A stretch of 64,000 nt of DNA, from assembly GCA_000004985.1 (NCBI GenBank), contig GG738914.1. The stretch is one strand, 5' to 3'. Below are positions 3,187-51,403 of this stretch, piece by piece. Within the stretch, counting starts at the first letter, position 1. Each line of letters starts with the position of its first letter. Source of the DNA: Naegleria gruberi. Lineage: Eukaryota. Below the pieces are notes generated by a model. The model ran no database searches, had not been told where the DNA came from, and worked only from the letters and a program-made list of their open reading frames with translations. Position numbers and translations under genes: made by a program.

Positions 3187-5452
3187 ATGATGAAAACAAG
3201 CTCCTACTCTCTGATGAAGAAGGCCTCTAACAAGGGAAGTAAAACTCTTGCAGCATTGGGTTCTTCTTCTTCATCGCCATCGGTTCTCTCTTGCTATAAT
3301 CATTCATGCTCGATATTGTCATCATCATCCACTAAACAATTATCATCAACAAGTTTATTTACTGGTGGTAATAATAATAACATTTGTAGAAGTTTTTCCA
3401 CCTCTTCTACTAATAGACAATCAATTTCATTAGATAACAATTCATCCTCATCATCATCTTCATCCAATAATAATAAGAAATCATCTTCGGTTTTTGTCAT
3501 GCTCCGAAACTTTCTCATCAAGGCTTTGAAAATCTATGGCAAGATACTTTTAGGACTTGGTGCCATTGTTTTAACAATGTATGGAGCACTTCGTGGATTC
3601 TTGGCCATTATTCACTTTGCACAATTTGATAATCCATCATCTCCTTATTATAACAAGGATTTGGCTGATAAATTGGAAGGTGCTGTTCAGATTGGTGAAG
3701 GATTGAATCGTTATATCAAATCACTCATGACAATTTATGCAATTGCTATCGATTACTTTTGGTTATTGATAACAGAACCATATAATCCTCATTATTGGTT
3801 TGTGGAAAAACCAGATAAGAATAGTGAAGAATTTATACAAAAGAAGAAGCAAGCTCACAAGAGAAATGCAGAAAGATTATTGGATTTATTTATTGAACAA
3901 AGAGGTGTCTATATCAAGATTGGGCAATTTTTGTCATCTTTGGTTTCTGCCATTCCTGATGAATATATTGATACATTGAAAGTTTTGAGAGATAGAGCAC
4001 CAACAATTCCATTTGATGATGTAAGAAAGGTCATTCATCAAGATTTTGGCAAGTCTATTGAGGAATTATTTGACGAATTCGATGAAAAACCAATTGCTGC
4101 AGCAAGGTTAGTTTAATTTCAATCAATTGTTTTTATTTAACTGCACCTTCAATTAATTTCAATTAACTTTGATTTAATCTTTGGAATTAACATTTTGGAA
4201 TTTCTGTTGATATACTTTTTAAACTTTGGATATTAAACTTGAAATCAACATATATAGTATTGCTCAAGTACATAGAGCTCGTACCAAGGATGGTAGATTA
4301 GTTGCCGTAAAGGTACAATACCCATTTGTTAGAAGTTATTTCGAAGGAGATATGAGAACCAACGATTCAATGAGTACTCTCAGTCTCAAACTCTACTACA
4401 TGCAAGAAGATGCTGAAAATATTGACACTCTAGTGGAAATGAATAACAAGTTCAATAGAGAATTGGAAAATGGTTTATATTCTGAATTGGACTTTAGACA
4501 TGAAGCATCTAATGCAAGACAAGCTGCTGACCATATGAAAGACCGTCCAGATGTCTACGTTCCAAAAATGTTTGACGAATTGACAAGCGAAAGAGTACTT
4601 ACTATGGAATTTATTGAAAATGCCTGTACTGCTAACAATGTAGAGCGTATCAAGGAAATGGGATTCAAGGAAGAGGATGTTGCTGAAAGAATTTTGTCTG
4701 CCTTTTCAGATCAATTATTTGTTCACGGTTTCATTCAAGCCGATCCTCATTCTTCAAATGTCTTTGTGAGACGTAATCCTTTGAAACCTTCCGAACCTCA
4801 ATTGGTCCTTTTGGATCACGGATTGTACAAGAAATTCGATGAGGATTTCAGAATTGGTTATGCCAAGTTTGTCAATTCTATTGTCCTAGGAGATGAAAAG
4901 GGAATGAAGGATTATTGTGAATCATTAGGTATTACAGATTACAAAATGTATGCCAGTATGATGATGATGCAAGCTTTTGATCAATTGGAAGGTGGAGAAG
5001 ATTATTCAGGAAAGAATTTTGAGGAATTCAATGATGTCGTCAAGGAACAATTTGAAGGAATTTTGGATATTTACAAGAAAATGCCAGCCGACATGTTATT
5101 CATCTCGAGAGCTGACAATATTTTGAGAGGACTCAATAAGGATTTAGGAGCTAAGGTCAATCGTTTTACTGTTATGGCTAGATCAGCCGCTAGGGGAATG
5201 AACATCAATTCCAAAACACCATCCGAAACTGGAATTTTCTCTCAAATGAATGAATGGAGGAGAAGAATGTACTTTGAATTAAGATTGTACATTCTTGCCG
5301 TTCACTCATGGTTTATCATGTTCTACATGAAACTCTTTGGCATGAATGCAGAAACAATGATGATCAAGAAGGAACACGACAAGATTGAAATGTTGGAAAA
5401 GGAAGTTGATTTATTGGAAACTCCTAAACATCTTGCATCTGAATTCAAGTAA
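3187..5452 (+). CDS. ABC1/UbiB-family atypical kinase (ADCK-like), two exons
   Basis: Exon 1 is 3187..4106 and exon 2 is 4258..5452. Splicing restores the conserved ABC1 motif PIAAASIAQVHRA...VAVKVQYP. Downstream kinase-like motifs are present (FIQADPHSSNVFV, LLDHGL). The N-terminus is poly-Ser/Asn, like an organellar presequence. Confidence 0.85.
4107..4257 (+). other. spliceosomal intron (151 nt, phase 2) of the ABC1 kinase gene
   Basis: It starts GTTAGT and ends ATATAG. Removing it joins two ORFs in different frames into a contiguous conserved ABC1 motif. Confidence 0.8.
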
Positions 5453-5531: not shown

Positions 5532-8500
5532 ATGTTCAACTTTCACAAGTATGCACTCGTCACTTCCCCTCCGAATCAACAGGAACAACAACAAACAATT
5601 CTATCCAACAACAAATTCCAACCACTTTTGACAGGAATTTCCTTCGGAGATATGCTTTTAATTCTAGAAACAGTTCCATGCACAAATGATCATCATCACG
5701 ACGATGACAATTCCTCTTCCTCACAGCAATCATCATCAATGAGTTATGTGCAACGAGTGAATATTCATGCCCTGCACAAGCACGGCTATAAACTCTATGA
5801 TCATCGTAATAGACCTCAGAAACCACAACTCTTCAGCACCTGTGGTTGGATCCCAACCAGTTATCTGACAACCATTCTGCCAGATCCATTGGTGTGTAGT
5901 CCCAATAAGAGTTTGGATCTGGGAAGGGCACTCGTTGATAGAGAAGAAGATATTGAACAAGCAGAGCAGTATCAGAAGGAGCATGGTATGAGGATGGATA
6001 ATTATGAGAGTTTCTGTAGGGATATGTATCGATTTGAGTGTTGGAATGATGTGGAGAAGGTCAGAGGAGGAGAATTGGATCGATTGGAGAAGGTTTCCAC
6101 ACAGCAATGTCATGTACATTGTTTGGAAGCTCCAAAATATGATGAGTTCAATATTGGTGTGGAAAGTTTTGAGAAGGAGAAGGAGGAGTGGAAGAAATTG
6201 GCGAGGGAAAAGTTTAAGGACTGTAGAGATGTATTCTTTGTGAAGAATTCGAAACATCCTGGATATTTGCATTGGCTCATTAGGAGTGCCTACATTTCAG
6301 AGACAATTATTAATGCTCTGAATGCCTTTGGAGATCGTCCTTGCTTGGGTTATCGTAGAAGAATTTCTGCAACTGAATTTGAAACTTTTCATAGATGGTT
6401 CACTTTCGAACAGTTGCATGAACGAGTGATGAGATTTGGTTTGGGTCTCTATCAATTTGAAAAGGAATTTTTAAATCAACCAAGACCATTTAGTCAAGAG
6501 GAAGGCAGAGGATTCGTTGGAATTTGTTCGAGCAATAGAGCCGATTGGTTTGTAGCTGATTGGGCCTCTCTCACTCAGAGTTTCATTTCTGTTGCATTGC
6601 CTCAAACCAAAGTCGATTGCATTAGTGAAGATATTGTGAATATGGAAAGTGTTGATGTTTTGAAAAGTATTTCACATGAAATTATTTGCATTATCAACAA
6701 TTCACAAATTCCATTATTGGTTTGCAGTCGTGATTTGACAGTCAAATTTTTGAAATTAATCAAACATGGATTGATTCCTTCTGTTAAGGTAATTGTTCAA
6801 ATGGAAGATTTCCTTGTAAAGAAGGAAGAATTTGATGAAACAAGTTATAAGAATGCAGGAGAGGAAGAATTGACCAAATATTTGAAAAATTTGAGAGCTG
6901 TTCATCAGGGAAAAGTGAAACAACATGCTAAGAAATTAACTTCTCAAGATGATTCCACGTCATCACCACTCTATTATCTCATGAAGAGTCGCTATAAGAA
7001 TTCAAATCTTAATATGAATGTTTCCATTGAGGAATTGTGTGATTTTAATAAGAGCGATGATGAATTTGTCATTCACAATTACATTTCTGAAAATGATATC
7101 AACTTGGATTGTAAGTCAATCATGTTAGCTAGAGAACTCTCGATAGAATTGACAGATATGACAAGTATCGAATTGAGTACTTGCAAGGACTATCCAACTT
7201 TTAACAATGCGCTCAGATTTAACATTAGAACTAATAATTCAGTGAACGACTTGACCACCATTGTCTATACTTCTGGATCGACTTCAACAGAACCTAAAGG
7301 AGCTGTCATGACCGATCGACAATATAATGAAAATGTACAAATGGAAATCTATCATTACCATCCACTAGTGTTCATTACCTATGCTCCATTGTCACACATT
7401 ACAGATAGAATGAACACTACAGCATGCATGGTAAATGGTGGAAGAAGTGGATTCAATTGTGGAGAGATGGATAAGGTATTTGATGATTATCAATCTATTC
7501 AACCAGTGACTGAGTCAAACACTCCAAGATTTTACAATATTCTTTATGCAGAATATCAAAGATTGAAAGTTTTGGAAGGTGATTCACTCACCCCTGAAAA
7601 GGAAGAAGAAATTATGCAAAAGGTCAGAAATATGCTTGGAGGAAGAATTAAATCCCTCGTGACAGGTGGTGCTTCAACTTCACCACAAGTAGTTGAATTT
7701 TTAAAGGAGTGTTTCAAATGTAATGTTTACAATGGGTATTCTTCAACAGAATGTGGATATATTGGACCAATTGGTGTTGATGGAGTTGACTATTTGAGTG
7801 AGAAAATTCAAGAGGAAAACAAACAACTTCCTAGACATATTATGAAATTGAAAGATGTGGAAATCAAATTGGAAAGCGTTCCAGAACTTGGCTATTTTAT
7901 AACTGATGTGCCATTTCCAAGAGGAGAAATTTGTGTCAAGAGCTCGACTATAATTTCAGGATATTACAGAGATACTGAAAAGACTAAACTTTCATTCGAT
8001 TCGGAAAATTATTTCCAAACAGCTGACATTGGTGAAATTGATAAGGAAAAGCTCAGATTGAGAATTATTGATAGAAAGAAGAATATTTTCAAATTGAGTC
8101 AGGGAGAATTCGTAGCTCCAGAAAATTTGGAAAATTTGTTCATTTCCAAAACATTATTTGTGGATCAAATTTACATTTACGGAAATTCTGAAAAATCCTT
8201 CCTTGTGGCTGTAATTGTTCCAAGGAATTTACCATTACTGAAAGAGAAAGCTAAGAGTATGGCTATAGAAAGAAATCAAATCTTTGAAGATTCGGATTTA
8301 TCGAGAAATGGTTTCATTTACAAGGTCATTCAAGATGATTTGAACAAGTGTGCAAGAGAAGCCAAATTGGAATCGTACGAAATTCCAAAAGGTTTCATTA
8401 TTGAGATGGAAATATTCACTCCAGAGAATGGTAAAATGACAGCATCTTACAAGCTTTGTAGACCAGCACTTGTAAAGTCTTACAAGGAAGATTTAGAGAA

Positions 8501-10062
8501 ATTGTATAAGGAAATTGAAGGAGAAGATATGTCCACTCTGGATCAAGTTTCCAATAAGGTTCAATTGGAGGAATTTTTGAAAAAACTATTCGAAAGTGGA
8601 GGAGTTGTCGATTCGTTGAGCTCTGTTCGATTATCCAACCTTCTGTCACAGAAATTCAATGTAAAACTTGGTGCAGATAAAATCTTACAAGAATGCAAGA
8701 ATAATGAAAATCCAGCACTTGCCATTATGGAAATGATTGAGAAGCTGCTGGAAAATGGACAAGCCCAAGATGAATTATTTAGAAATGATGAAGAGTTGTT
8801 GCGGGAAGTTAAAGATCTCATCAAGGATATTCCAATAGTTGACGAAACTCTTTCGAAAACTATCGAACTGAATAAGAATAGAAATATTTTAATCACTGGA
8901 TCAACTGGATTCATTGGAGTTGGATTGGTATGTGAGCAATTATTCAGCAATCCAGAATCCAATTTGACATGTATTATAAGAGGAAAATCATTGGATAATG
9001 AAAGGGAAAGATTAATCAGTAATGTAATGAATTATTGTTATCATTTTTCACCTGAAGAGAAGAAATCTCTATTGGAAACATTTAATAGTCGAGTTTCAGT
9101 AATTTTAGGAGATATTTCAATGAATAGATTTGGACTAGATCAAGATATTTATAACAAATTAGAAACCGATATTGATACAGTCATTCATTGTGCAGCCAAT
9201 GTCAACTTCATCATGAATTATACTCAACTTGAAGCACGTCAATGTTCAAAGTGTTATTGAATGTTTGAAATTATGTACCTCTCAAAGAATCAAACACTTG
9301 CACTTTGTTTCAACTATTAGTGTCATTCCATATTCAATGATTGATCAATATAAGGAGCTGAACAAGCTTGTCGCACAAGATTTCATTCCTCTTTCTCTTC
9401 AAAATTTCAATGACCTTTCAGATGGTTATCCACAATCCAAATACATTGCAGAGCATGCTCTCCGTTTAGCTATGGAACAATGCAACTTTAGTCAATTGAA
9501 AATTTACAGACCTGGACTCGTAGTTGGACATACCATGAATGGATTCAGCAGTGTGAGGGAATGGATTTGTAGATTGATATGTGGATTTGCTCATTTGGGT
9601 GAAATTCCAATTGAATATTCCAAACATGGCATGCAAGTTATTCCAGTCAATTGCTGCGCCAAAGGAATTATTGACCTCATCAATAATCAATCAAAATCCA
9701 ACACTACAATTCATCATTTAACCAATTGGAACAAACTCTACAGAACCATTGATAACATCCTGCTAGCCATGAAGAATTTAAATCTCACATGGAAATCCAT
9801 CCATTACAAAAATTGGATTGAAAATATTCACACACAAATGAATAATGGAAAAATGGAAAAGTTTCCACAAATGACAAAAGAAAATTCGATATTTGGAATT
9901 GTACACATGTTTCCACTCGAACATGACATGCTTAATATTGATTCGACAATGGAAGAGCAAATTTGCCAACACGATTTGAGTTATCTTTCGGATGAGAAAG
10001 TGGACGATAGAAAGTTAGTGGAAAGGGAAATTGAATTTCTAATTAGAAACAAACAGATCTAA
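5532..10062 (+). CDS. NRPS-like adenylation-carrier-thioester reductase (A-T-R) enzyme, carboxylic-acid-reductase-like; apparent +1 frameshift near 9228-9233
   Basis: ATG at 5532. The AMP-binding core has YTSGSTSTEPKG and acyl-CoA-synthetase-like blocks. A carrier-like GVVDSLSSVRL motif offers a candidate phosphopantetheine Ser. The C-terminal NAD-binding reductase has ILITGSTGFIGVGLV. The reductase alignment runs across two ORFs, 5532..9260 and 9229..10062 (NVNFIMNYTQL|KHVNVQSVIECLKL), which requires a 1-nt shift. Confidence 0.8.
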
Positions 10063-10475
10063 TGGTTATACAAAATGAAATTGGAATTGCTGTAGAAACT
10101 CAAATAAAGTTAGAACCAAATTCTAGACCTTTCAGATTTTTTATTCGAACAGATACGAAACCTTTCAAAAATCATTATTTAACATTCCAATCTTTTTCAA
10201 ACAATGCTTTACAATGCAACATTAGATCTCATGGATAATAATCATTTCACACCTCAAACAAGGAAAGTGAAAAGGTTGAAATTTGATTGATTTGACACTG
10301 GTCGCTTATTTCAAACCTCATTTGTGAATGTCAAGCTTTTAAATGGGTAATTACAAGGATTATAAGCAAACATGAATGGTTGGATTATCTAAACAGCTCC
10401 GCTCAACCACTATTCGAAACATTTTTCACACAAGGACAATAAATTATATTATTCGAAAGGTATCTTACTTAAAAA

Positions 10476-13400
10476 ATGACTCAACAAGTTAGTACAACCA
10501 ACATGTTGCGTTTAGTCTTGTTTCTACTCTCATTGATGTGTTGTTTGTCCACCATAACACATGCCACAACCATCAATGGTTACACTTTGGATTTGTTCAT
10601 TGGTGGTAATTTTACGAGTGGATTGAAAGTTGCCGAAACTTCACCAACCTTCTCAACCAACAACTTTGAATATCGACTCGTCTATCTGGATAAGAGAAAC
10701 GGTGATTTGTACTATTCTGTTTCAGGAAAGGTTATTCGAAAGCTCGATAAGAATGGAATTGTAACCAATGTGGCAGGAAGCATGAGAAATAATGGTAATT
10801 ATGAAGATATAGCCACCATTCAAGATTATTACTATGCCTTGGACAGAGAATTGATAGATATTGGTGGTTTAATTATTGACACCAAGTCAAATGATATTTA
10901 CTATTTAAATAATGGAATTTATATGGAAAGAATTCGAAACTCTGATAAGAAATCGATTATTGCAGTTGGTTATGGCACCAATAACGAACTTCCCTCTGAA
11001 GGATTGGGAAATCAAATCAATTTTGCTTACAATTATCCTTCTTACAATAATTACGTTCGTGGACTTGCCATAAATGGTAAGAATGAAATATTTATTGTCC
11101 AAAGAAGTTCAATTTCCAAATATAATATTGGAAATTATAGCGTTACTAATATTTTGACAGATTTTGAACCTGGCACTTATTCACAAATTGTTCTTTCCAA
11201 AGACGAAACTTTTTTGTTTGCCAAAAATGGTGAAGCAATTGATAAGATTTCCATGAATGGACAAGTGACATTTGGTTATACTAGTATTTCTAATTTAATG
11301 AGTATTGATACTGTTGATAATGAACTCTACATGTTAACTTTAACTGGTGTTTACGTTTTCAGAAACAATTCGAATCAACTTATTGCTGCCGGAAGTTCAG
11401 GAAGTTTCGTCGATGGCATGAATTCTACCAATTTACTAATTAATTATGGTACTACCATGCTTGTTGATGATAATAAGGATATTTACTTGACTGATTTGTA
11501 TAGTTCTGTAATTCTCAAGATTGACCATGCTAGTCAATTGGTCACAAATTTGTTAGCTGTTGAAATTCCAACATCTAGTGAAACAGTTTATTCAGCAAAG
11601 AATTTTACTAGTAGAGGTATTTCACATGCAGTTCATAATAAGGTCAATGGTTTCGTATACATGTGTGATTCGAATGGAAATGTATTCGAATATGACAATA
11701 ATTTAGTTTCTCAAAAAGTAACTGGTTATTCCTGTATTGATATTGCTGTAAATTCCCTCGGAGAAGTATACTTCCTTTCTAATTACTTTATTTATCAATT
11801 ATTAAGCAATGGAACTGTTATTACCTTTGCAGGAGATGGAACTTGGGGTGTTCCTATAAATGGAACTTATCTTGACCAAAACCCAGTTGCAGCAGTTAGA
11901 TTTGGTTTCTATTCGAATAATGACATGTTTCTTCAATCCAGTTATTACATTTTCAGAGTTGACCACACAACCAAATTTGTCCAAAAAATTTATTCCTCAA
12001 CCAATAGTGAATTAAGAATTACAATCATCGATCCAGACACTGACAACTTGTACACTTCTGAAGGATCGTCAATTAGTTTAGTTTATCCTAATGGAATTGC
12101 CGAAATAGTTGCTGGAATTAACTCTCAACCAGCAGTTCGTTCATTCAAGAGAAAGATTAGTTTATCCGATGTAGGAGAAGATGCATTCGCCAATTACATT
12201 AATCCAACTGGTATGTCCATTGGAGCCGATGGAAAATTATACATTTCCTATCAATATATGGTTAAGAGACTTGAGAATGGATTGTTATGGACACAGCAAT
12301 TTGTGGACACACAACAAGGACCTATGAGTGCTGCCTTTATTAGTGATGTGGTCATTTTGGGAAGATTTGGAGATGCAATCATGTTGACGAATCCAAATGG
12401 AAATATTTATTTATTGAATCCAGTTTCTAGTTTTACCTGTTTTGGTAATTTACCTTCTTCATCAAGTGTTTGTTCAGGTTACGGTTCATGTGTTGGTCCA
12501 AATCGATGCAACTGTCAAAATACCAACTTTGGTTTCGAATGTGAATATTCCACTTGTTTCGACGTTTCAGGATTCGACTATCAAACTGTTTGTGGAGGTG
12601 TCGGTAAATGTTCCATACAAGATCAATGCTCATGTCCATCTGGATACACTGGCACCACCTGTTCCACACCACTTTACAATATCTGTTATGGAATTTCCTC
12701 AAATTCGTCGAATGTTTGTTCTGGAAAGGGAAGTTGCGTTTCGACTGATTCCTGTAAATGCAATGCTGGAAGAGTTGGAAGTTATTGTCAGTATGAGTTT
12801 TGTGCAAGTACTTGGAATGCAAATTCTGAAACCTTGACATGTGCTGTTCCATCCTCGAGTTCTGTTGAGGTCAATCAGGAAATTGTGGCTGTCAATCAAT
12901 TAAGTTCAAAGGTTTTGAGGTTTAGTAGAACTCCATCAGTTTCTATAACGTTCCCATCTGATTTTTATTCGTATGTGTTAAAGACTTATCCTGAAATTGG
13001 TGATCAGTTGACAGTTGTTTCTTCCATTTATGATCCAACACTTGACACTTCTCAAGAATTGCTTGTAGTGAGTTCGACTGCTTCAGTTTCTGTCTTTAAA
13101 AATACTTCAGATATTCTCCCAGTCTATAATCTTCCAAATCCAATTGTCATTCAATTCAACAGCATCAAAATTGACAAGACAGGTGGCAGTTTCAACTATT
13201 CCTGTATGTATTATGACACTGCATCAAATTCTTGGAGCAGTAGTGGAATTAAGAGTACCATCACATCCTCACAACTTTCCTCTACTTATTACACATTCTC
13301 ACTCAAGTGTGAAACCTATCACTTGACATCTTTCTCAGTAATTGACATGAATTATAAAAAGACAAGTCGAGATGACACATTACAATTAGGAGGATTGACT

Positions 13401-25824: not shown

Positions 25825-25905
25825 GCAGACTTGGCCGAGTGGTTAAGGCGACAGACTTGAAATCTGTTGGGGAAACCTTCGTAGGTTCGAATCCTGCAGT
25901 CTGCG
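25825..25905 (+). tRNA. tRNA-Ser (anticodon UGA)
   Basis: Cloverleaf is intact. Acceptor GCAGACT pairs with AGTCTGC and the discriminator is G. D-arm is GCCGAGTGGTTAAGGC. Anticodon stem ACAGA/TCTGT carries loop CTTGAAA. The variable arm is long. T-arm is GTAGGTTCGAATCCTGC. Confidence 0.9.
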
Positions 25906-25980
25906 TCTGAGATTTTGATTTGGCTTTAATTGGGGAGCGTAAAGTGTTTCCCTAGTATTGATTAAGAGGCTTTTATCAGA

Positions 25981-26093
25981 GTGTAAGGCGGTCTTGACCG
26001 AGTGGTTAAGGTGATTGACTAGAAATCAATTGGGGCGACCCGCACAGGTTCGAGTCCTGTAGATCGCGATCAGTTTTATCTTTTAAAAAATTA
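25981..26093 (+). repeat. duplicated ~110-bp unit containing tRNA-Ser(AGA) plus shared flanks (copy 1)
   Basis: Near-identical to 31591..31702. The shared flanks are GTGTAA upstream and ATCAGTTTTATCTTTTAAAAA(A)TTAAC downstream. Confidence 0.8.
25988..26068 (+). tRNA. tRNA-Ser (anticodon AGA)
   Basis: Acceptor GCGGTCT pairs with AGATCGC, with one G-T pair. Anticodon loop is CTAGAAA. The variable arm is long. T-loop is GGTTCGAGTCC. Confidence 0.9.
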
Positions 26094-31590: not shown

Positions 31591-31702
31591 GTGTAAGGCG
31601 GTCTTGACCGAGTGGTTAAGGTGATTGACTAGAAATCAATTGGGGAGACCCGCACAGGTTCGAGTCCTGTAGATCGCGATCAGTTTTATCTTTTAAAAAT
31701 TA
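31591..31702 (+). repeat. duplicated ~110-bp tRNA-Ser(AGA) unit (copy 2)
   Basis: Flank identity with 25981..26093 extends beyond the tRNA on both sides. Confidence 0.8.
31598..31678 (+). tRNA. tRNA-Ser (anticodon AGA), second copy
   Basis: Identical to 25988..26068 except for one substitution in the variable arm (GGGGCGACCC versus GGGGAGACCC). Confidence 0.9.
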
Positions 31703-40827: not shown

Positions 40828-43800
40828 TTAATCAAGATAACTTCTAAACGCACAACAAATACCATTAATCAATCCAACGTGATTGAGGTAAGCTGTGTGG
40901 TTCATCTTTTTGGTCATTCTATCTATAATTGAGGCGTTAATCTTCTTCTTTTTGGAACCATCAAAGGCCTCTTCCTTTTCATCTTCACTACTATCGTCTC
41001 CAGTTTCTGGTTTCATAAAGGAATAAGTTCCAATAGACGAAACATCTTCATATAAATCACCAGAGTTATGCTTCTTATTAAAAACCTGTACAGATGAGTA
41101 TTCCTTCTTTTCACTCTTACTGAAAAGATTACTCATATCGCATTTGCATCTGATAATTTTCACATAGGAGAAGGTTTCCTGAAGATTGGAAATCATTCTC
41201 TCCAGAACATCTTTGGAAGACTTTTTCTTGTTACTCTTCTTTCCAAATGAAATGTTATCAGACCAAATCAATGCAGACTCAATTGGAACGTATGTGTCTT
41301 GTTCTGATCCAATCAGCAAGACTTGTTTGAACCATGACAAATCGTTTGTCATTGAAAGTTTAAATAGCAAGCATTGTTCTAACTTGTGGCTTTCATAATT
41401 GGTCTTGTTATCTTTCGAATCTTTTACATCAGAATGATCCTCCATGGATAATTCTTGTAAACATTTCTCCTTTTTAAAGGATTTCAAAAACCAAATTCCA
41501 GCCCTTACTAAATTATTGGAGGCAAAACTCTCGTTATCCTTGTTAATCAGTGTTTTAATTGGACCAATACCAAGGTGAGGCACCGACAAACTCACAAAGG
41601 TATGCAAGTATGGAAAGACAGTTTTCCAGCTTGGTCTAAAGTAATAGAAGGCTGATCTCATAATTATTCCACCAAGTGAGTGGCAAATGAAACTAACTTT
41701 GTGGAAGAAGATTTCATTTTCCTGAATCATTTGAGTAATTTCATCAGTTACTAGTTTGGCCATTATTTTGATTGGTGCATTGTGGAGCTCACTTGAAGTA
41801 TCTTTAGTGTGCAGCTTATCAAGAGATTTGACAATATAAAACTGGTGTCTATCATCTGGGAAGTGAAGGCCAAGGATTGTTTTAAATGTAACAAAATCGT
41901 AATGACTGGACTTGTAGCCAGGGATAAAGATAATTAAGTGATTCTTTGTAAGTGCTCCAGCATCTACCTTTTCTCCAACCAATAGTCCTTTCTTTTCAAT
42001 TTCTCTATATTCATCCTTGGGTATTAATTGTGGTTCAAGATCATCACCCATTATATCGGCCACTGAAAACAATGGCTCTGCTGGCTCTGAAACTTCTGAA
42101 ATTAAACTAAACTTGGAAAATCTTGGATAGAAAAATAAATTATTATCAATCAAATTATCAATTGAGGTGGTGATACATGTCTTTTCAGGGTACGGATCAT
42201 TAATAATGGAACCTCCAAACACGGATTGATTACATTGGTCACTATCTCCATTCCAAAACTTTTCAAATCTTTGTATAAAATGTTTTTCCAAGTTATCTAC
42301 CAAAGTTTTAGGATCGTTCACTATGGTGTTTTGTTGACAATACCATAAATCTTCAATACTCTCAAGAATTGGTGTAAATTTGGTGATAATAAGATCTGGA
42401 ATTAGTTCAACATTTCCAACAGACTCAATGAGAGCACTCAGCTCGTCTAAAAATTGTTCCACTTCCTTGTTTTCTTTTCTTTCCAATATATGATGGTATT
42501 GATTTGATAATCCACTTGTGGAGGCAAGCTCTCTTAATGAATTTGTTGTTGGCATTGGTGGTTGAGTATTTCTTGTTGTTGTGTTACCACTTGCTGTTGA
42601 TAGATTCAGAGTTGGTAACACTGGTGATGACAAACTTTGAATTTTTGAATGAATATCAGAGTAGGATTTTCTTCTCTTTCCTGAAAGGGGAACCTTTTTC
42701 GATGGGGAGGGAGGAACCTCAGAATCAGTAGGTGAAACAATATTAAGTTCTGGAATATCAGATACGGAAATTGATGTGCTGGAGGATACATTCATAGTAC
42801 TTGCTGATTTGTCAATGTTGTTCGACTTCTTCTCTTCTCCTATTGTCATGAGCGATATTCTTGAACCCATGAGGCAATTGAGAATCTCCTTTGTGATTTC
42901 CAGAGTGTAAGCCACAATTTCCTTCTTTTTCCACCTCCTATTTCTTTTCAACAAACTTGGAAAGAGAATGTTCAGTATCTTGATTAAATTCTTCTCGTAG
43001 GACGAAATATTAGAGAACCAAGTCTCATCGAATTCAGTCTCTGGATCCTTATTCTCCTCAATTTCAATTACAGGTGATGAGCAACTCATCTTTGATGCAA
43101 CCACTTCCTGATTCTTCAAAAACGTAAAATCTTCCAATGACCTTGGAATATCACTGCCGTACGAAACGTCAATCATTACACAATGGATTGAAGACTTTAC
43201 AATACTGTAATACCAATTTTCAAAGATGGCTGGATAGGCAATATTGTATCCTCTCATTGCTTTTCTAATGGTGATTGTTCTGTCTGCAACTTTTACAAAA
43301 TCATTGACATCCAATTGTTTGATCTTGTATTCGTACTTGTTTGAGTGCATTGCCTTCTCGAATTTCTTTTCCTCTCGTTGAACTTCTTCCTTATCCTTCG
43401 GAAGATGAAATAATTGAAAATCAATATCAATTAAATTATGCTTTAACAAAATTGCAATATCTGCAGTAAAATCAAAGATGAAAACCTCATTCAATAAAAC
43501 CTCTTGTTCTCTATATCTGATATAGAAAACTTGACTCAGTTTTGAATTGTTATAAACTCTTGTTGTCTCTTCCTTAACAGTTTGATTCATACTCAAATCA
43601 ATACCATTCCTCATCAATGATTGACTCAGAACAGTAGCATTCGGTGGTGTTGGAGGACTGGTTATTATTGCTGTTGAATCCACAAAACGAACAGAAAAGT
43701 CCGAGGCTGAATTATTATTTACATGATTAGCATCATATTTGCCACTTCTTCCATCCTTTGATGAATGCAAAATAAAGGAATTAATATGAAAATCCGATAA

Positions 43801-44070
43801 GGAAGCATCAATAGATCCATCATGATGTAAATTACTATTGCTACAACTACTATGAGAATTATTGTGAGAGGCAGAAGAACCCTTTTTGTATTTATGTTCC
43901 CTACTATGATGATGAAGAGTATTTTCTTCTTGTTGATGATTTCTTCTATTCACCTTTCCAAAACGTGGATTCACCTCCACCCTCACATAATAATAACCCT
44001 TGTGGAGCATTCCCGAGTTGATGAATCTCTCCATATTGACCATCAGCCTTACTTTGCCCTTGAACGTCAT
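40828..44070 (-). CDS. FAM135-like protein with DUF3657 N-terminus and DUF676 putative serine hydrolase domain
   Basis: ATG at 44070. The N-terminus MERFINSGMLHKGYYYVRVEV resembles the DUF3657 start. The C-terminal domain has HLIIFIPGYKSSHYDF...KVSFICHSLGGIIMRSAF, a GHSLGG-type nucleophile elbow of the alpha/beta-hydrolase DUF676 family. Low-complexity linkers separate the domains. Confidence 0.8.
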   Translation of the reverse strand: MTFKGKVRLMVNMERFINSGMLHKGYYYVRVEVNPRFGKVNRRNHQQEENTLHHHSREHKYKKGSSASHNNSHSSCSNSNLHHDGSIDASLSDFHINSFILHSSKDGRSGKYDANHVNNNSASDFSVRFVDSTAIITSPPTPPNATVLSQSLMRNGIDLSMNQTVKEETTRVYNNSKLSQVFYIRYREQEVLLNEVFIFDFTADIAILLKHNLIDIDFQLFHLPKDKEEVQREEKKFEKAMHSNKYEYKIKQLDVNDFVKVADRTITIRKAMRGYNIAYPAIFENWYYSIVKSSIHCVMIDVSYGSDIPRSLEDFTFLKNQEVVASKMSCSSPVIEIEENKDPETEFDETWFSNISSYEKNLIKILNILFPSLLKRNRRWKKKEIVAYTLEITKEILNCLMGSRISLMTIGEEKKSNNIDKSASTMNVSSSTSISVSDIPELNIVSPTDSEVPPSPSKKVPLSGKRRKSYSDIHSKIQSLSSPVLPTLNLSTASGNTTTRNTQPPMPTTNSLRELASTSGLSNQYHHILERKENKEVEQFLDELSALIESVGNVELIPDLIITKFTPILESIEDLWYCQQNTIVNDPKTLVDNLEKHFIQRFEKFWNGDSDQCNQSVFGGSIINDPYPEKTCITTSIDNLIDNNLFFYPRFSKFSLISEVSEPAEPLFSVADIMGDDLEPQLIPKDEYREIEKKGLLVGEKVDAGALTKNHLIIFIPGYKSSHYDFVTFKTILGLHFPDDRHQFYIVKSLDKLHTKDTSSELHNAPIKIMAKLVTDEITQMIQENEIFFHKVSFICHSLGGIIMRSAFYYFRPSWKTVFPYLHTFVSLSVPHLGIGPIKTLINKDNESFASNNLVRAGIWFLKSFKKEKCLQELSMEDHSDVKDSKDNKTNYESHKLEQCLLFKLSMTNDLSWFKQVLLIGSEQDTYVPIESALIWSDNISFGKKSNKKKSSKDVLERMISNLQETFSYVKIIRCKCDMSNLFSKSEKKEYSSVQVFNKKHNSGDLYEDVSSIGTYSFMKPETGDDSSEDEKEEAFDGSKKKKINASIIDRMTKKMNHTAYLNHVGLINGICCAFRSYLD

Positions 44071-44313
44071 GTTGTCTCGTGCTGCTGATTTTTTATTTTC
44101 CTTATTGGCGCGATAATTTTTGAGAGAGTTTATTTGAGATATTTGTCAATGAACAACACGAAGAATGAGGTTTTGAAGGGTTTTGTTTCAAAGTGGGGAA
44201 AATAAGGAACTGGTGTTGATGCCTTAGATTGACAAGCAATGATGGAGCGAAATTTTAAAAGGATGTTGGATGTGGTATGTTCTGATATTTGTTGTTATGG
44301 TATTAAACAAGAA

Positions 44314-44384
44314 GCGTCGATGGTTTAGTGGTAGAATACGGCGTTGCCATCGCCGTGACCCGGGTTCAATTCCCGGTCGACGCA
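44314..44384 (+). tRNA. tRNA-Gly (anticodon GCC)
   Basis: 71 nt. Acceptor GCGTCGA pairs with TCGACGC and the discriminator is A. D-loop is TAGTGGTAGAAT. Anticodon stem GGCG/CGCC carries loop TTGCCAT. T-loop is GGGTTCAATTCCCGG. Confidence 0.9.
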
Positions 44385-44932
44385 TCTGAAAGATATCAAT
44401 TTTTGCTTTTTACTCTTGTAATTGCACTTTCAATTTTTTACTATATAAACTAGACATGTGGGACTATGATTCTTCCAAATATCTCATTCTGATATTTTAT
44501 ATTGATCGAGATAATAACCGCAGTTTTGACCTCATTTTTTTACTTGACTTTTTTAAAGTTGTAAAAAAATAAAATCAATTAGGATTCTGTTCACTATCTT
44601 TCCTCTGTGTAATTACTAGCTATTACTTGATGAAAGGAAACATGAAATTGAAGTCTTCATTCATCTGATATTTATGTATCTTGGTTTCGGTTCCACAAAC
44701 CTGCAAGGTGTTGGCGAGAAGGAAATATTTTGTTTTACCGGAGATGTTTTTTGTTCTTAAAATTGCCCGAGATGAATTTTTTTGAATACGAGAAATTGTT
44801 CATTGCCAAATTTGTTCTCCGATAAGTGAAAATTTAAGGTTTTGGTTGGATCATCATGGATATTGAAAAAACAATAAGAAAAAATAACCCTACTGCTAAT
44901 TTAAACATTATATAATATATTATTGATATAAA

Positions 44933-46030
44933 ATGGCATCTAATTCAATTCCAGCACTTTTTGAACCAATTACCATAAGAGGAATGACCTTAAAGAATAG
45001 AATTGTGGTCGCACCAATGTGTCAATACTCTTGCAATGATGGATTTGCAAATACTTGGCATCAAATTCATGCTACTTCGAGAATTGTTGGTGGAGCTGCA
45101 TTATTCATTATGGAAGCCACAGGAGTTTCGGCCATTGGAAGAATTTCACCTAACTGTTTAGGATTATATAAGGATGAACATGTGGAAATGTTGAAAACCA
45201 TTGTAGATCAATCACATGAATTGGGTGGAAAGATTGGAATTCAATTGGCACATGCTGGACGAAAGGCAAGTTTAGGTAGATTATGGGATAGTGGAAGATT
45301 GGCTTTATCTGAAGATAGAGGTGGTTGGGAAGTTGTCGGTCCATCTGAATTGCAATTTGATGATATTCACAAAATGCCAAGGGAAATTACCATTCCAGAA
45401 ATTGAGGAAACTATTAAGGATTTCATTGAGGCTGCTAAGAGAGCTGTTAAAGCAGGATTTGATGTGATTGAGATTCACGGAGCTCATGGTTATTTGATTC
45501 ACTCGTTCATGTCACCTGTGTCAAATTTGAGAACTGACATGTATGGTGGAAGTTTTGAAAATAGAACGAGATTATTGTTGCAAATTGTTGATGGAGTGCG
45601 AGGTGTTATTCCTGAGGAAATGCCATTGTTTGTGAGATTGTCATGTGAAGATTATATGGAAGAAGGTTGGACAAGTGATGATACTGTCAAAGTTTCACAA
45701 ATTCTCAAAGATCATGGTGTTGATTTGATTGATTGCTCAACCGGTGGAACTAAACCAATTCAAAACGTTCATGGTTTGGTTGTTGAACCTGGTTATCAAG
45801 TTAAATATTCAGTTGCTATCAAGGAAAAGGTTGACATTTTGACAGGAGCTGTTGGTAAATTAGAAGATCCAATTTTGGCCAATAAGGTCATTGAGGAAAA
45901 GAAAGCAGACCTCGTTTTGATTGGTAGAGCCATGATGGGTGATCCTTACTGGGCTTTGAGAGCTGCCAAAACTCTTGGTTATGCCAATGCTGGAATTCCG
46001 CCTCAATACGGTTTCGCCATCAATTTGTAA
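44933..46030 (+). CDS. NADH:flavin oxidoreductase, Old Yellow Enzyme family, YqjM (bacterial thermophilic-like) subclass
   Basis: Intronless. The motifs FEPITIRGMTLKNRIVVAPMCQYS, KIGIQLAHAGRKA, FDVIEIHGAHGYLIHSFMSPVSNLRTDMYGGSFENRTRLL and VDLIDCSTGG match Bacillus YqjM block by block. Confidence 0.9.
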   Translation: MASNSIPALFEPITIRGMTLKNRIVVAPMCQYSCNDGFANTWHQIHATSRIVGGAALFIMEATGVSAIGRISPNCLGLYKDEHVEMLKTIVDQSHELGGKIGIQLAHAGRKASLGRLWDSGRLALSEDRGGWEVVGPSELQFDDIHKMPREITIPEIEETIKDFIEAAKRAVKAGFDVIEIHGAHGYLIHSFMSPVSNLRTDMYGGSFENRTRLLLQIVDGVRGVIPEEMPLFVRLSCEDYMEEGWTSDDTVKVSQILKDHGVDLIDCSTGGTKPIQNVHGLVVEPGYQVKYSVAIKEKVDILTGAVGKLEDPILANKVIEEKKADLVLIGRAMMGDPYWALRAAKTLGYANAGIPPQYGFAINL

Positions 46031-50026: not shown

Positions 50027-51403
50027 TTTTTTGTGATGTTGAGGAGATATTGAACATCATGATGAATTATTTACATATCATCCTACATCGTCTTCGGTTT
50101 TGATCCATATGATATAATTTTTTCTAAATATTCATAATCTCTTTGATGATGAACTTCATAAAGAAAGACTTAGTAGTATGGACGGCAGGTTATCTCATAA
50201 GGCCAGTTTTCATTAGGATAAAGAGATGAATGATGATGAAGTATTTTTTTAAAAAAATAAATATCCCTAATGACGGAAATAAGTGGTAGTTTGCAAAAAA
50301 TCGAGGGGTAAAATCAGGTACCACTATCTGAACAGTGGTTTTTATCAAATCCAGACCTGGCTTTTTGAAAAAGTGAGGGGTTGATTTGTAATAAATTGAG
50401 GACTTGAATTTTTTACAATCATAACCTAAACTTTTATTAAGAGTCAACTTAGCAGAATGGAATGGTTGGAAAAATGACCAAGACCAAATGAATCAACAAA
50501 TGAAAATGTGAGGTCTTTGAGGTTAGTAATTGGCTCCGTGAAAGTGTGAGTAAATTTCCCATCCACATAATTATCCAAAACAGCAAATACAGTATTGTTC
50601 TTCTCAATAAAACTTGTGATTATTACACTTCTAAAATATTAGTTGCAATTTAGCCATGAAACCACTTACTTTCCACTGCTAGTAAAAGCATATTGAGATT
50701 GATTTAAGTGAAAAATCCATTGATTTGACACTAGCAATGTTCCCTGAAACAGTCTTGACCACCAAATCTGAAAGGGATGTATTAATACGGAAATCCTAAA
50801 GATATCAATAAATTAATTAATTTAAATACTTACATGATTCTTATCTATTAGTCGTAGAATTAAATACCTTTACCATTTTGCCAAAGTTGAGCACATATTT
50901 CAACAGAGCATCTTTAGTTTTACATAATAAATGATCTTTGGGAAGCAATTCTCCTAATAATTTCAATAACAATCCAATCTTTGATGTTGCAATCTCGCAA
51001 AATACAATAATAAAGAGAATAATTGTTATTGCTGTAACAACATTCACCGCCTACCCCTTATACAATGATTCGTCAACAATACTACTACTATTGTCATTTA
51101 AATCAAATCATCCTCCCAATTCTCCAAAACTGAAACTCTCTTGCTCATGAAAAATTACTTCTTGTTGTCCAGATTTCAAATTTGATTCATCTATTCCAAT
51201 TTCAAATTTCCAGTTAATAATTGTTCCTTTGTTACATTTTTGCTAATATCTTCATAGTCTCTTTTACAACCTTCTTGATACGTTTTCGTTCTCTGTATGT
51301 TTTTGTGTATTGAATGTTTTTCTTCTTAACGCTTTTTGATTCATTTTTAATGTTTCATAAATGATAGACTTCTTAATTTAGAAATTCTTCTTTCCCAATA
51401 AAA

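What the first reader, a model, noticed from the sequence alone, without database searches (positions are those of the whole stretch)
5532..10062. NRPS-like A-T-R carboxylic-acid-reductase-type enzyme with an unusual 300-aa N-terminal extension
An adenylation domain (YTSGSTSTEPKG), a carrier-like motif (GVVDSLSSV) and a terminal NAD(P)-dependent thioester reductase (TGSTGFIG...YxxxK-type) sit in one polypeptide. This architecture is typical of Lys2/CAR/fatty-acyl-AMP reductases that make aldehydes or alcohols, and hints at specialised lipid or secondary metabolism. The gene also carries frameshift (1).
Basis: partly seen in the sequence, partly recalled or inferred. Interest (0 to 1): 0.5.

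Follow-up and report, generated by a model that had tools for sequence, protein, structure and literature searches.

The report
Amoeba carboxylic-acid reductase with SH3/ZZ-relic head
This is a Naegleria gruberi gene for a large enzyme of the carboxylic-acid-reductase type that probably turns a fatty or similar acid into an aldehyde. Its odd front end is an SH3-like adaptor plus a decayed zinc finger shared with unstudied relatives in other amoebae, and one extra base in the assembly splits its last domain.

Summary
Window 5532-10062 (+) is one Naegleria gruberi gene read as two ORFs. One extra C at 9228 (CAA-C-TTG where the relatives have CAA-TTG) breaks the frame. Removing it gives a 1509-aa protein that aligns end to end with N. 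fowleri and Willaertia magna.

The architecture is adenylation, carrier and thioester-reductase domains (A-T-R). The best matches are NCBIfam carboxylic acid reductase and the CAR crystal structures. A confident T-R model (pLDDT 89) matches the CAR PCP-R didomain, and every family-invariant catalytic residue is present. It is not Lys2.

The "300-aa extension" is about 250 aa and is not an orphan. It is an SH3-like domain followed by a ZZ zinc finger that keeps only 2 of 6 cysteines. Relatives from Amoebozoa and metagenomes carry an intact ZZ, with or without SH3, in the same place. In a distance tree they form a ZZ-bearing group apart from the labelled bacterial CARs. I found no literature on it.

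No PPTase or biosynthetic cluster lies in the window, and neighbours are not conserved between species. Whether the frameshift is an assembly error or a real recent lesion cannot be decided here. The substrate is unknown, and a fatty or other hydrophobic acid is only a guess.

The parts
5532..10062 (+). Whole gene. With the extra base at 9228 removed it encodes 1509 aa. The ATG is at 5532 and the TAA stop at 10060-10062.
   Evidence: The MFNFHKYAL start is conserved in N. lovaniensis, N. fowleri and Willaertia. The public N. gruberi model (P0001, 1202 aa) starts at aa 41 and stops at the frameshift stop.
5541..5882 (+). SH3-like domain, aa ~4-117. It carries a His/Asp/Ser-rich low-complexity insert (aa 50-69, 5679-5738) and a loop insert of about 25 aa (aa 78-104, 5763-5843).
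   Evidence: A profile of 7 homologous segments (A8) against PDB sequences returned only SH3 domains among the 60 chains listed, best E 0.0013. Pfam SH3 hits are all below threshold: P0010 1.4e-4, P0015 2.2e-4, P0011 5.5e-3, N. fowleri 8.8e-3, Willaertia 1.5e-2. N. gruberi itself has no Pfam SH3 hit.
6000..6176 (+). Degenerate ZZ-type zinc-finger relic, aa ~157-215. Only Cys170 and Cys197 remain of the six ligand cysteines.
   Evidence: It aligns colinearly with the intact ZZ of P0010 and P0015 (A3): 'HCLEAPKYDEFNIGVES' against 'HCLECKDYDEFNLCYSC'. A profile of the heterolobosean extension hits the ZZ region of P0010 at domain E 1.1e-9 and of P0015 at 1.1e-5. P0015's ZZ scores above the Pfam cut-off (25.5 bits) and P0010's just below (20.4). 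N. gruberi has no direct Pfam or PDB match. hhalign against 20 other ZZ fingers finds the same register but only at P=0.058.
6249..8531 (+). Adenylation (ANL, ACSL/FadD9-type) domain, aa ~240-1000. Motifs: FGDRPCLGYRR 266-276; A3 TSGSTSTEPKG 580-590; PLSH with His622; STECG 738-742; TAD 830-832; DRKKNIFKLSQGEF 847-860; A10 Lys974.
   Evidence: Pfam AMP-binding 2.4e-35. CAR model and structures align from aa ~508/573 onward. Motif coordinates are, and Lys974 is invariant in 65 homologues.
6807..7115 (+). Insertion of about 100 aa in the N-terminal A subdomain (aa ~426-528), specific to Naegleria and Willaertia. A smaller insertion lies at aa ~372-384 (6645-6683).
   Evidence: Family alignment against P0010, Balamuthia P0013 and Mycobacteroides CAR P0109. 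The insertions are conserved among the three Naegleria.
8556..8756 (+). Carrier (T/PCP) domain, aa ~1009-1075. The phosphopantetheine-attachment Ser1028 is the codon at 8613-8615.
   Evidence: PP-binding scores 21.8 bits on the isolated segment. Ser1028 is invariant in 65 homologues. The AF2 model has four helices with Ser at the start of helix 2, and Foldseek aligns it to the CAR PCP-R didomain 5msv.
8883..10059 (+). Thioester reductase (R) domain, aa 1118-1509: Rossmann TGSTGFIG 1122-1129, Arg1150, Ser1260-Thr1261, Tyr1299, Lys1303, plus a C-terminal subdomain.
   Evidence: NAD_binding_4 1.1e-47 over the full model length. TIGR01746 scores 195.5 bits. Model pLDDT is 89.3, and Foldseek gives MxaA R domain 1.2e-24 and CAR R 5msu/5mso about 1e-19.
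9228..9228 (+). The extra base (C) that shifts the frame by +1 inside the R domain, between Gln1232 and Leu1233. As written, the frame ends at the TGA at 9258-9260.
   Evidence: Codon alignment with both orthologues and the sequence itself. Reading G9231 as the extra base gives the same protein.

Best explanation
The locus is the Naegleria gruberi member of a group of CAR/FadD9-type carboxylate reductases found in amoeboid eukaryotes.

Inferred mechanism, by homology with characterised bacterial CARs:
1. The ACSL-like adenylation domain uses ATP to form an acyl-AMP from a free carboxylic acid. The substrate is most likely a medium- or long-chain aliphatic or other hydrophobic acid.
2. The acyl group passes to the 4'-phosphopantetheine thiol on Ser1028 of the carrier domain. 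That arm must be installed by a PPTase encoded elsewhere in the genome.
3. The carrier delivers the thioester to the C-terminal SDR-type reductase (TGxxGxxG, Thr1261/Tyr1299/Lys1303). The reductase uses NADPH to release an aldehyde, which may be reduced further to the alcohol.

The N-terminal 250 aa are not catalytic. They are an SH3-like domain followed by a ZZ zinc finger that has lost four of its six cysteines, which suggests a protein-interaction or localisation module.

Shown here: the domain order, the folds of T and R, the presence of all family-invariant catalytic residues, and the homology of the extension to the SH3+ZZ modules of relatives. Inferred: the chemistry, the substrate class, the cofactor, and the role of the extension.

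In the deposited sequence one extra C (9228) splits the R domain. I judge it about even whether this is an assembly error, or a heterozygous allele, in an otherwise functional gene, or a real and very recent inactivating lesion.
For: - **CAR similarity by sequence.** NCBIfam's best hit is carboxylic acid reductase, 1.3e-122, covering aa 508-1460. PDB's best is CAR 5msc at 2.4e-74 as one stretch, aa 573-1362.
- **Domains.** Pfam finds AMP-binding and a full-length NAD_binding_4.
- **Structure.** The T-R model has pLDDT 89.3 and pTM 0.85. It matches CAR PCP-R 5msv over 533-569 alignment columns and the terminal R domains 4w4t/4u7w.
- **Catalytic residues.** Columns invariant across 65 homologues are all kept: Lys974, Ser1028, T1122/G1123/G1126/G1129, His1219, Asn1237, Ser1260, Tyr1299 and Lys1303. 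The CAR signature motifs of PMC5826065 are present.
- **Mechanism in characterised CARs.** The CAR mechanism, the PPTase requirement and activity on C4-C18 fatty acids are described in PMC5396282.
- **Relatives.** Willaertia, Rhizamoeba, Balamuthia, Cavostelium, Stenamoeba, Protostelium and dictyostelids score 310-1160 bits, against 270-307 bits for the three bacterial CARs that carry a name. The NJ tree separates a ZZ-bearing group holding all labelled eukaryotes from a group holding all labelled bacteria.
- **The extension.** 29 of 43 relatives' N-termini have Pfam ZZ.
- **No sign of decay in N. gruberi.** The region downstream of the frameshift is an open 277-codon frame in 34% GC DNA. It is 66% identical to N. 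lovaniensis, against 51% for the upstream part of R. N. gruberi breaks no more family-conserved columns than its relatives: 9 of 82, against 9, 6 and 8.
Against: - **Below curated thresholds.** The protein scores 410 bits against the NF041592 cut-off of 1300, and 195.5 against 213.35 for TIGR01746. It is therefore not an equivalog of bacterial CAR.
- **Deviations in ANL and CAR signature motifs.** The A3 P-loop is TSGSTS-T-EPK. GYGSTE is GYSSTE. TGD is TAD in N. gruberi only. In GxxNxxD/E, the Asn is Ser in N. gruberi only.
- **As written, the gene lacks a reductase active site.** The ORF stops 26 codons after the shift, before Tyr1299 and Lys1303.
- **The closest orthologue is also broken.** The N. 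lovaniensis assembly shows two further frame breaks near the 3' end, which fits real decay of this paralogue.
- **Missing context.** No PPTase was found in the window. There is no expression or biochemical data, and substrate specificity was not predicted.
Confidence: 0.7

Rival explanations
1. The frameshift is real and homozygous. In strain NEG-M the gene is a very young pseudogene, or it encodes only SH3-ZZrelic-A-T plus a third of the Rossmann fold. That product could load an acyl group but could not reduce it.
For: The extra C is in the deposited assembly, and the public protein model ends there. It is not in a homopolymer, so it is not a typical base-calling slip. The nearest orthologue, N. 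lovaniensis, has two further single-base frame breaks in the last 350 bp of its gene, in a PacBio RSII assembly polished with Quiver from 10 SMRT cells. The other paralogue type (N. fowleri, Willaertia) is intact. N. gruberi alone has G831A (TGD->TAD), N1340S and D1373N at columns conserved across the family.
Against: The downstream 277 codons contain no stop, and all invariant residues are kept. Downstream identity to N. lovaniensis is higher than upstream identity within R. N. gruberi shows no excess of broken conserved columns. The two N. lovaniensis breaks lie in an A-run and a CA-run, which are typical contexts for long-read indel errors. No independent N. gruberi sequence was found to check against.
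Confidence: 0.4
2. The enzyme is an alcohol-forming (four-electron) reductase, or its R domain performs some other kind of release, rather than an aldehyde-forming CAR.
For: The best structural match of the R domain is MxaA (4w4t/4u7w), ahead of the CAR R domains. From background knowledge, not tested here, MxaA releases an alcohol. CAR R domains themselves can over-reduce aldehydes (PMC10168641). The Asp of GxxNxxD is Glu in all four heteroloboseans, and the Asn is Ser in N. gruberi.
Against: Across the whole A-T-R protein, CAR is the best match both to the NCBIfam models and to PDB sequences. Two-electron versus four-electron outcome cannot be read from sequence with present knowledge.
Confidence: 0.2
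3. It is a Lys2-type alpha-aminoadipate reductase of lysine biosynthesis, or a classical NRPS-like amino-acid-activating enzyme.
For: The domain order is the same, A-T-R. TIGR03443 gives a hit at 1.9e-47.
Against: TIGR03443 matches only aa 887-1460 (end of A plus T-R) at 161 bits, against a cut-off of 1030. The A domain resembles acyl-CoA synthetases and FadD9 (FKLSQGEFVAPENLEN; the remaining NCBIfam A-domain hits are acyl-CoA and related carboxylate-CoA ligases, mostly fatty-acid-CoA ligases). There is no condensation domain.
Confidence: 0.03
4. The +1 break is bypassed at expression, by programmed +1 ribosomal frameshifting on CUU-G or by transcript-level correction.
For: The site is CAA-CUU-GAA. 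A peptidyl-tRNA-Leu could re-pair from CUU to UUG, and that would restore exactly the conserved protein (this is inference only). The sister species also shows apparent single-base breaks followed by conserved open frames.
Against: No stimulatory context is evident, since GAA is not a rare codon. The site is absent from the relatives, which read CAA TTG in frame. As far as I know, no such mechanism is known for Naegleria nuclear genes.
Confidence: 0.02

Closest known systems
Bacterial type I carboxylic acid reductases (Nocardia iowensis, Segniliparus rugosus and Mycobacterium marinum CAR; 'FadD9'; EC 1.2.1.30; NCBIfam NF041592; PDB 5msc/5msp/5msv)
   Same: The A-T-R order is the same in one polypeptide, with an ACSL-like A domain. 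Shared motifs are the PxxH His, the LSQGEF hinge, the A10 Lys, the DSL Ser, TGxxGxxG with an Arg 21 residues later, the bacterial-type Thr in 'VST', and GYxxxKxxxE. Sequence alignment is continuous over about 790 residues, and the PCP-R fold matches.
   Different: Identity is only about 31-34%, and the score is 410 bits against the equivalog cut-off of 1300. The amoebal protein has an extra 250-aa SH3-like plus ZZ-relic head, insertions of about 100 aa and about 14 aa in the A domain, and a P-loop one residue longer. It comes from a eukaryote and falls in a separate tree group.
Uncharacterised ZZ-A-T-R and SH3-ZZ-A-T-R proteins of Amoebozoa, Heterolobosea and metagenomes. Examples: Willaertia magna KAL9644932.1, Polysphondylium violaceum KAF2072257.1, Acytostelium subglobosum XP_012747882.1, Rhizamoeba P0011, and metagenomic P0010 and P0015.
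   Same: These are the true family of the window gene. They score best (310-1160 bits), share its tree group, and carry an N-terminal module at the same position. P0010, P0011 and P0015 have the full SH3 + ZZ order in colinear alignment with the window protein.
   Different: Most relatives keep all six ZZ cysteines (29 of 43 hit Pfam ZZ). Naegleria and Willaertia keep two. Most relatives lack the SH3 domain and the heterolobosean A-domain insertions. None has a published function.
Fungal carboxylic acid reductases (e.g. Neurospora crassa NcCAR, PDB 8aep)
   Same: The A-T-R logic is the same, and Ser, Tyr and Lys are essential (PMC5826065).
   Different: The match is much weaker: the 8aep R domain gives 3.9e-7 by sequence and 1.6e-14 by fold. 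PMC5826065 notes that fungal CARs have Ser where bacterial CARs, and this protein, have Thr in the catalytic triad.
Lys2 / alpha-aminoadipate reductase (TIGR03443)
   Same: A-T-R order and dependence on a PPTase.
   Different: Only the T-R part aligns, and the A domain is of a different subfamily.
Terminal thioester reductase domains of PKS/NRPS (MxaA 4w4t/4u7w; S. coelicolor PKS TR 8v1x; Mtb NRPS R 4dqv)
   Same: These are the best structural matches of the R domain (E 1e-24 to 1e-18).
   Different: They are the C-terminal domains of multi-module assembly lines, whereas this protein is a stand-alone single-module enzyme.

Membership tests
Carboxylic acid reductase (EC 1.2.1.30; NCBIfam NF041592 equivalog) | Adenylation, carrier and thioester-reductase domains in that order in one polypeptide | tested here: met
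   Pfam; NCBIfam alignment aa 508-1460 to model positions 172-1107 of 1160; continuous alignment to CAR 5msc; T-R model and Foldseek. This requires removing one base at 9228.
Carboxylic acid reductase (EC 1.2.1.30; NCBIfam NF041592 equivalog) | Whole-protein score at or above the curated equivalog cut-off (1300 bits) | tested here: not met
   410.5 bits. It is therefore CAR-like but not an equivalog of the bacterial enzyme.
Carboxylic acid reductase (EC 1.2.1.30; NCBIfam NF041592 equivalog) | A-domain signature motifs of Stolterfoht et al. 2018 (S/TSGS/TTGxPK; PxxH; G/STExG; D-x14-17-R; LSxGEF) | tested here: met
   PLSH (His622), STECG, D832...R848 and LSQGEF are present. There are deviations: the P-loop is TSGSTSTEPK, with G->S and one extra residue, and TGD is TAD in N. 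gruberi only.
Carboxylic acid reductase (EC 1.2.1.30; NCBIfam NF041592 equivalog) | Phosphopantetheine-attachment Ser in a carrier-protein fold | tested here: met
   Ser1028 in GGVVDSLSS is invariant in 65 homologues. PP-binding scores 21.8 bits on the isolated segment and 16.4 in the full protein, against a cut-off of 20.8. The model has four helices with Ser at the start of helix 2 and aligns to the CAR PCP-R didomain.
Carboxylic acid reductase (EC 1.2.1.30; NCBIfam NF041592 equivalog) | R-domain motifs T/SGxxGxxG, downstream Arg, Thr/Ser-Tyr-Lys triad (GYxxxKxxxE) and GxxNxxD/E | tested here: inconclusive
   TGSTGFIG, Arg1150, Thr1261 and GYPQSKYIAE are present. GxxNxxD/E reads GFSSVRE: the Asn is Ser in N. 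gruberi only, and the Asp is Glu in all heteroloboseans. Tyr and Lys are encoded only after the frameshift.
Carboxylic acid reductase (EC 1.2.1.30; NCBIfam NF041592 equivalog) | ATP- and NADPH-dependent reduction of a free carboxylic acid to an aldehyde, dependent on a PPTase | not testable with these tools
   This needs recombinant enzyme assays. No PPTase gene was found among window ORFs of 140 aa or more, and the rest of the genome could not be searched.
Thioester reductase domain (Pfam PF07993 NAD_binding_4; TIGR01746) | Match to the family models above their thresholds | tested here: met
   PF07993 scores 162.8 bits against a cut-off of 20.1, covering 1-258 of 258 positions. TIGR01746 scores 195.5 bits, just under its cut-off of 213.35. 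The fold match to R domains is E 1e-24.
Lys2 / L-aminoadipate-semialdehyde dehydrogenase (TIGR03443) | Full-length match above the cut-off (1030 bits), including the A domain | tested here: not met
   161.4 bits, and only aa 887-1460 align.
ZZ-type zinc finger (Pfam PF00569) | Cys/His ligands for two zinc ions (C-x2-C ... C-x2-C ... C-x2-C) and a match to the model | tested here: not met
   N. gruberi keeps only Cys170 and Cys197. It has no Pfam hit even at E<=10 and no ZZ hit in PDB with the heterolobosean profile. Descent from a ZZ finger is nonetheless supported through intermediates: P0010 at 1.1e-9 and P0015 at 1.1e-5, in register. It is a relic and not a member.
SH3 domain (Pfam SH3_1/SH3_2/SH3_9) | Match to SH3 models or structures in the register of the ALYDY-like start and the G-W/F-x-P-x-x-Y/F-L end | tested here: inconclusive
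   N. gruberi alone has no Pfam hit. Five of seven homologues give SH3 hits below threshold at the same place. The 7-sequence profile lists only SH3 domains among its 60 best PDB chains, best E 0.0013. Structure prediction of the extension failed, with pLDDT 35.

The most novel reading that the evidence does not exclude
SH3/ZZ-headed A-T-R proteins are a further class of carboxylate reductases, so far seen only in amoeboid eukaryotes and distinct from bacterial type I and the fungal CAR classes. Their adaptor head tethers aldehyde or alcohol production to a protein partner or cellular site. Naegleria and Willaertia inherited two ancient paralogues. One of them, the gruberi/lovaniensis type, is now losing its reductase domain, which would explain frame breaks in two independent assemblies.
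Probability: 0.2. Interest if true: 0.6.

Novelty: new variant of a known kind. Interest (0 to 1): 0.42.

Why it matters
CARs are prized biocatalysts, and the characterised ones are bacterial or fungal. This gene points to a sizeable, uncharacterised group in amoeboid eukaryotes (Heterolobosea, many Amoebozoa, environmental sequences). In that group the same chemistry is fused to ZZ and sometimes SH3 protein-interaction domains, an architecture I found discussed nowhere in the searchable literature.

It offers new enzyme diversity to test. It also raises the question of why a soluble acid reductase would need an adaptor head, and gives a possible link to fatty-aldehyde and fatty-alcohol metabolism in Naegleria.

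On the practical side, the public N. gruberi model is truncated at both ends: 40 aa at the N-terminus and 277 aa at the C-terminus. The N. lovaniensis model is also truncated. Both annotations can be corrected once the frame breaks are checked against reads.

Tried and rejected
1. **Structure of the extension.** AlphaFold of aa 1-276 with a 3-sequence alignment gave pLDDT 34.7 and no usable fold. No fold search of the extension was possible.
2. **Searches for the extension alone.** The search for homologous proteins with the 7-sequence alignment A3 and with the N. gruberi extension alone both returned nothing. They did not even return the identical public N. gruberi protein, so I treat these as tool failures and not as evidence of absence.
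3. **Direct ZZ tests.** hhalign of the heterolobosean ZZ-like block against 20 canonical ZZ fingers found the expected register but only at P=0.058. The same block against PDB gave no ZZ hit. The ZZ link therefore rests on the intermediate sequences.
4. **Intron explanation for the frame break.** Rejected. The switch must occur within a few bases of CAACTTG, and the protein is colinear with its orthologues without a gap.
5. **PPTase or biosynthetic cluster nearby.** None was found among the 39 window ORFs of 140 aa or more outside the target gene. Neighbours differ in N. lovaniensis and N. fowleri.
6. **Independent copy of the frameshift site.** An exact-pattern scan of metagenome contigs, with or without the extra base, found nothing.
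7. **Literature.** Searches combining Naegleria, Dictyostelium, Amoebozoa or ZZ with CAR, thioester reductase or FadD9 found nothing relevant. The Gahloth et al. 2017 CAR structure paper was not held.
8. **Lys2 assignment.** Rejected.
9. **Substrate specificity.** I did not attempt a prediction from pocket residues, because no validated code exists for this group.

Full report
**Source and gene structure.** The window is eukaryotic. GC content is about 27-39% per 2-kb window. The upstream ABC1-kinase gene is split by a 151-nt GT...AG intron (4107-4257) that restores the AAASIAQVHRA motif. The target protein is 100% identical to 'predicted protein [Naegleria gruberi]' (P0001).

The finding's coordinates are exactly ORF A (5532-9260, 1242 aa) plus ORF C (9229-10062, 277 aa) in another frame. 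A codon alignment with the orthologous DNA of N. lovaniensis (L001) and N. fowleri (L002) shows CAA TTG (Gln-Leu) where the window has CAA C TTG. So one extra base, C9228, causes the +1 shift. Removing it gives a 1509-aa protein with no gap at the break site. It aligns over its full length with N. fowleri P0003 (1524 aa, ~50% identity) and Willaertia magna P0009 (1496 aa), and with N. lovaniensis P0002 (66%) as far as that model runs.

The public N. gruberi model (1202 aa) begins at Met41 and ends at the frameshift stop (...EARQCSKCY), so it is truncated at both ends. The MFNFHKYAL start is conserved in all four heteroloboseans.

**Catalytic part.** Pfam calls AMP-binding (2.4e-35), PP-binding (weak) and NAD_binding_4 (1.1e-47, full model length). 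The best NCBIfam model is carboxylic acid reductase NF041592, at 1.3e-122 and 410 bits over aa 508-1460. That is far below the 1300-bit equivalog cut-off. Lys2 (TIGR03443) matches only the T-R part.

The best PDB sequences are the CAR structures 5msc, 5mso and 5msp (about 1e-74). In 5msc and 5msp a single alignment runs from the P-loop, through the hinge motif and the carrier DSL motif, into the reductase.

An AlphaFold model of aa 960-1509, built on 65 homologues, is confident (pLDDT 89.3, pTM 0.85). It shows a four-helix carrier domain with Ser1028 at the N-terminus of helix 2, followed by a Rossmann-type reductase with a C-terminal subdomain. Foldseek places it with terminal thioester reductases (MxaA 4w4t, 1.2e-24) and with the CAR PCP-R didomain 5msv (5.5e-22, 533-569 aligned columns).

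Every column that is invariant across the 65 homologues is kept in N. gruberi: Lys974, Ser1028, the TGxxGxxG residues, His1219, Asn1237, Ser1260, Tyr1299 and Lys1303. The published CAR signature motifs (PMC5826065) are present. The exceptions are a P-loop one residue longer with G->S (TSGSTSTEPK, shared by all four heteroloboseans), TAD for TGD, and Ser for Asn in GxxNxxD/E. The last two are in N. gruberi only.

The heterolobosean A domains also carry insertions of about 14 aa and about 100 aa in the N-terminal subdomain.

The mechanism I propose is the established CAR cycle: adenylation, thiolation on a PPTase-installed phosphopantetheine arm, then NADPH-dependent thioester reduction (PMC5396282). 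It is inferred by homology and was not tested. The ACSL/FadD9-like A domain, together with the activity of characterised CARs on C4-C18 fatty acids, makes a fatty or other hydrophobic acid the best guess for the substrate.

**The N-terminal extension.** An exhaustive HMMER search of 1.84 billion cluster representatives with aa 251-1450 found 23,106 relatives. The top hits that carry names are eukaryotic:
- Willaertia (Heterolobosea);
- Rhizamoeba, Balamuthia, Cavostelium, Stenamoeba and Protostelium;
- the dictyostelids Polysphondylium, Acytostelium and Dictyostelium.

These score 310-1160 bits. The three bacterial CARs that carry a name (Hellea, Maricurvus, Mycobacteroides) start at about 307 bits. 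A neighbour-joining tree on 915 well-occupied columns separates a group holding all labelled bacteria from a group holding all labelled eukaryotes and all sequences with a ZZ pattern.

In that second group the region before the A domain very often holds a canonical ZZ zinc finger. 29 of 43 N-terminal regions hit Pfam ZZ, best 6.4e-11. Three relatives form the nearest outgroups of the heteroloboseans in the tree: P0010, P0015 and Rhizamoeba P0011. P0010 and P0015 carry SH3 plus an intact ZZ, and Rhizamoeba carries SH3 plus a partly degenerate ZZ. All three align colinearly with the Naegleria extension.

A profile of the heterolobosean extension, with the A domain excluded, hits exactly the ZZ region of P0010 (domain E 1.1e-9) and of P0015 (1.1e-5). 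In N. gruberi, however, only two of the six cysteines survive...RFEC170W...HC197LEAPKYDEFNIGVES against P0015's ...KCNQC...HCLECKDYDEFNLCYSC. Direct tests against ZZ models are negative or weak. It is a relic of a ZZ finger and not a zinc-binding member.

The first ~117 aa are SH3-like. Five of seven homologues give Pfam SH3 hits below threshold at the same position. A profile of the seven segments lists only SH3 domains among its 60 best PDB chains, best E 0.0013, in the expected register. N. gruberi has extra loop insertions there, including a His/Asp/Ser-rich tract. Structure prediction of the extension failed.

SH3 and ZZ domains are protein-interaction modules in general, which is background knowledge. 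I therefore infer an adaptor or localisation role, but this is untested.

**Genomic context.** None of the 39 window ORFs of 140 aa or more outside the target gene is a PPTase or an obvious pathway partner. The neighbours are an ABC1 kinase, EGF-repeat membrane proteins, LRR, RCC1, REJ, RRM, an OYE flavoprotein, a hybrid histidine kinase, RGS proteins and others. The orthologues in N. lovaniensis and N. fowleri have entirely different neighbours. This is a stand-alone gene and not part of a cluster.

**Status of the frameshift.**

Evidence for an artefact, or at most a very recent event:
- The 277 downstream codons are open in AT-rich DNA.
- They keep all invariant residues.
- They are more similar to N. 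lovaniensis (66%) than the upstream part of R is (51%).
- N. gruberi breaks no more family-conserved columns than its relatives.

Evidence for a real lesion:
- The extra C is not in a homopolymer.
- N. gruberi alone has three substitutions at conserved positions.
- The N. lovaniensis orthologue shows two further single-base frame breaks near its 3' end, at an A-run (~L001:12170) and a CA-run (~12490-12505). Each is again followed by a conserved open frame. That assembly is PacBio RSII plus Quiver only (PMC6125883), so these may be consensus indel errors.

No independent N. gruberi sequence was available. I put error-or-heterozygous against real-and-fixed at roughly even odds.

**Novelty.** The chemistry and domain logic are those of a known enzyme kind (CAR/FadD9). 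The SH3/ZZ-headed architecture in amoeboid eukaryotes, and its decayed form in Naegleria, is a variant I could not find described. The sequences themselves sit in databases as hypothetical proteins. I rate it as a new variant of a known kind, of moderate interest.

Noticed in passing
Locus L001:8001-12620 (N. lovaniensis), L002:8001-12621 (N. fowleri), window 5532-10062: The gene tree conflicts with the species tree. N. gruberi and N. lovaniensis are 66% identical and N. fowleri and Willaertia 56%, but N. lovaniensis and N. fowleri only 53%, although N. lovaniensis is described as the closest relative of N. fowleri. This suggests two ancient paralogues with reciprocal loss.
   Followed up: partly
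L001 ~12170 and ~12490-12505: The N. lovaniensis orthologue has two apparent single-base frame breaks near its 3' end, one in an A-run and one in a CA-run. The annotated model (P0002, 1375 aa) stops at the first one, yet the conserved C-terminus (...NSIFGIVHMF......LLEQEIEWLIRSGNI...) continues in other frames.
   Followed up: partly
window 5532-5651 and 9229-10062: The public N. gruberi protein model (P0001, 1202 aa) omits the first 40 conserved residues and the last 277 residues of the gene.
   Followed up: yes
window 7269-7301: The ANL P-loop (A3) is TSGSTSTEPKG in all four heteroloboseans. That is G->S plus one extra residue relative to the near-universal TSGSTGxPKG. GYGSTE is likewise GYSSTE or GYASTE.
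   Followed up: partly
window 3187-5452: The upstream gene is an ABC1/ADCK-type atypical kinase with a long Ser/Asn-rich N-terminus. It is split by a 151-nt GT-AG intron at 4107-4257.
   Followed up: partly
L001 ~10506-10551; L002 ~10146-10224: Each orthologue shows one short gap between tblastn segments inside the A domain (about 46 nt and about 79 nt), at different positions. These are probably short introns. N. gruberi has none.
   Followed up: no
window 25825-26068, 31598-31678, 44314-44384: There are three tRNA-Ser genes (TGA, AGA, AGA), two of them 83 nt apart, and one tRNA-Gly(GCC).
   Followed up: no
window 44927-46027 (+), 47657-50056 (-), 40831-44145 (-): Other genes in the window: an Old-Yellow-Enzyme-type NADH:flavin oxidoreductase (4.6e-78), a hybrid histidine kinase with a receiver domain, and a DUF676/FAM135-like putative serine esterase.
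   Followed up: no
tool behaviour: the search for homologous proteins returned no hit for the N-terminal extension, either as an alignment or as a single sequence, although the identical public N. gruberi protein is in the database. Negative results from these two calls should not be trusted.
   Followed up: no
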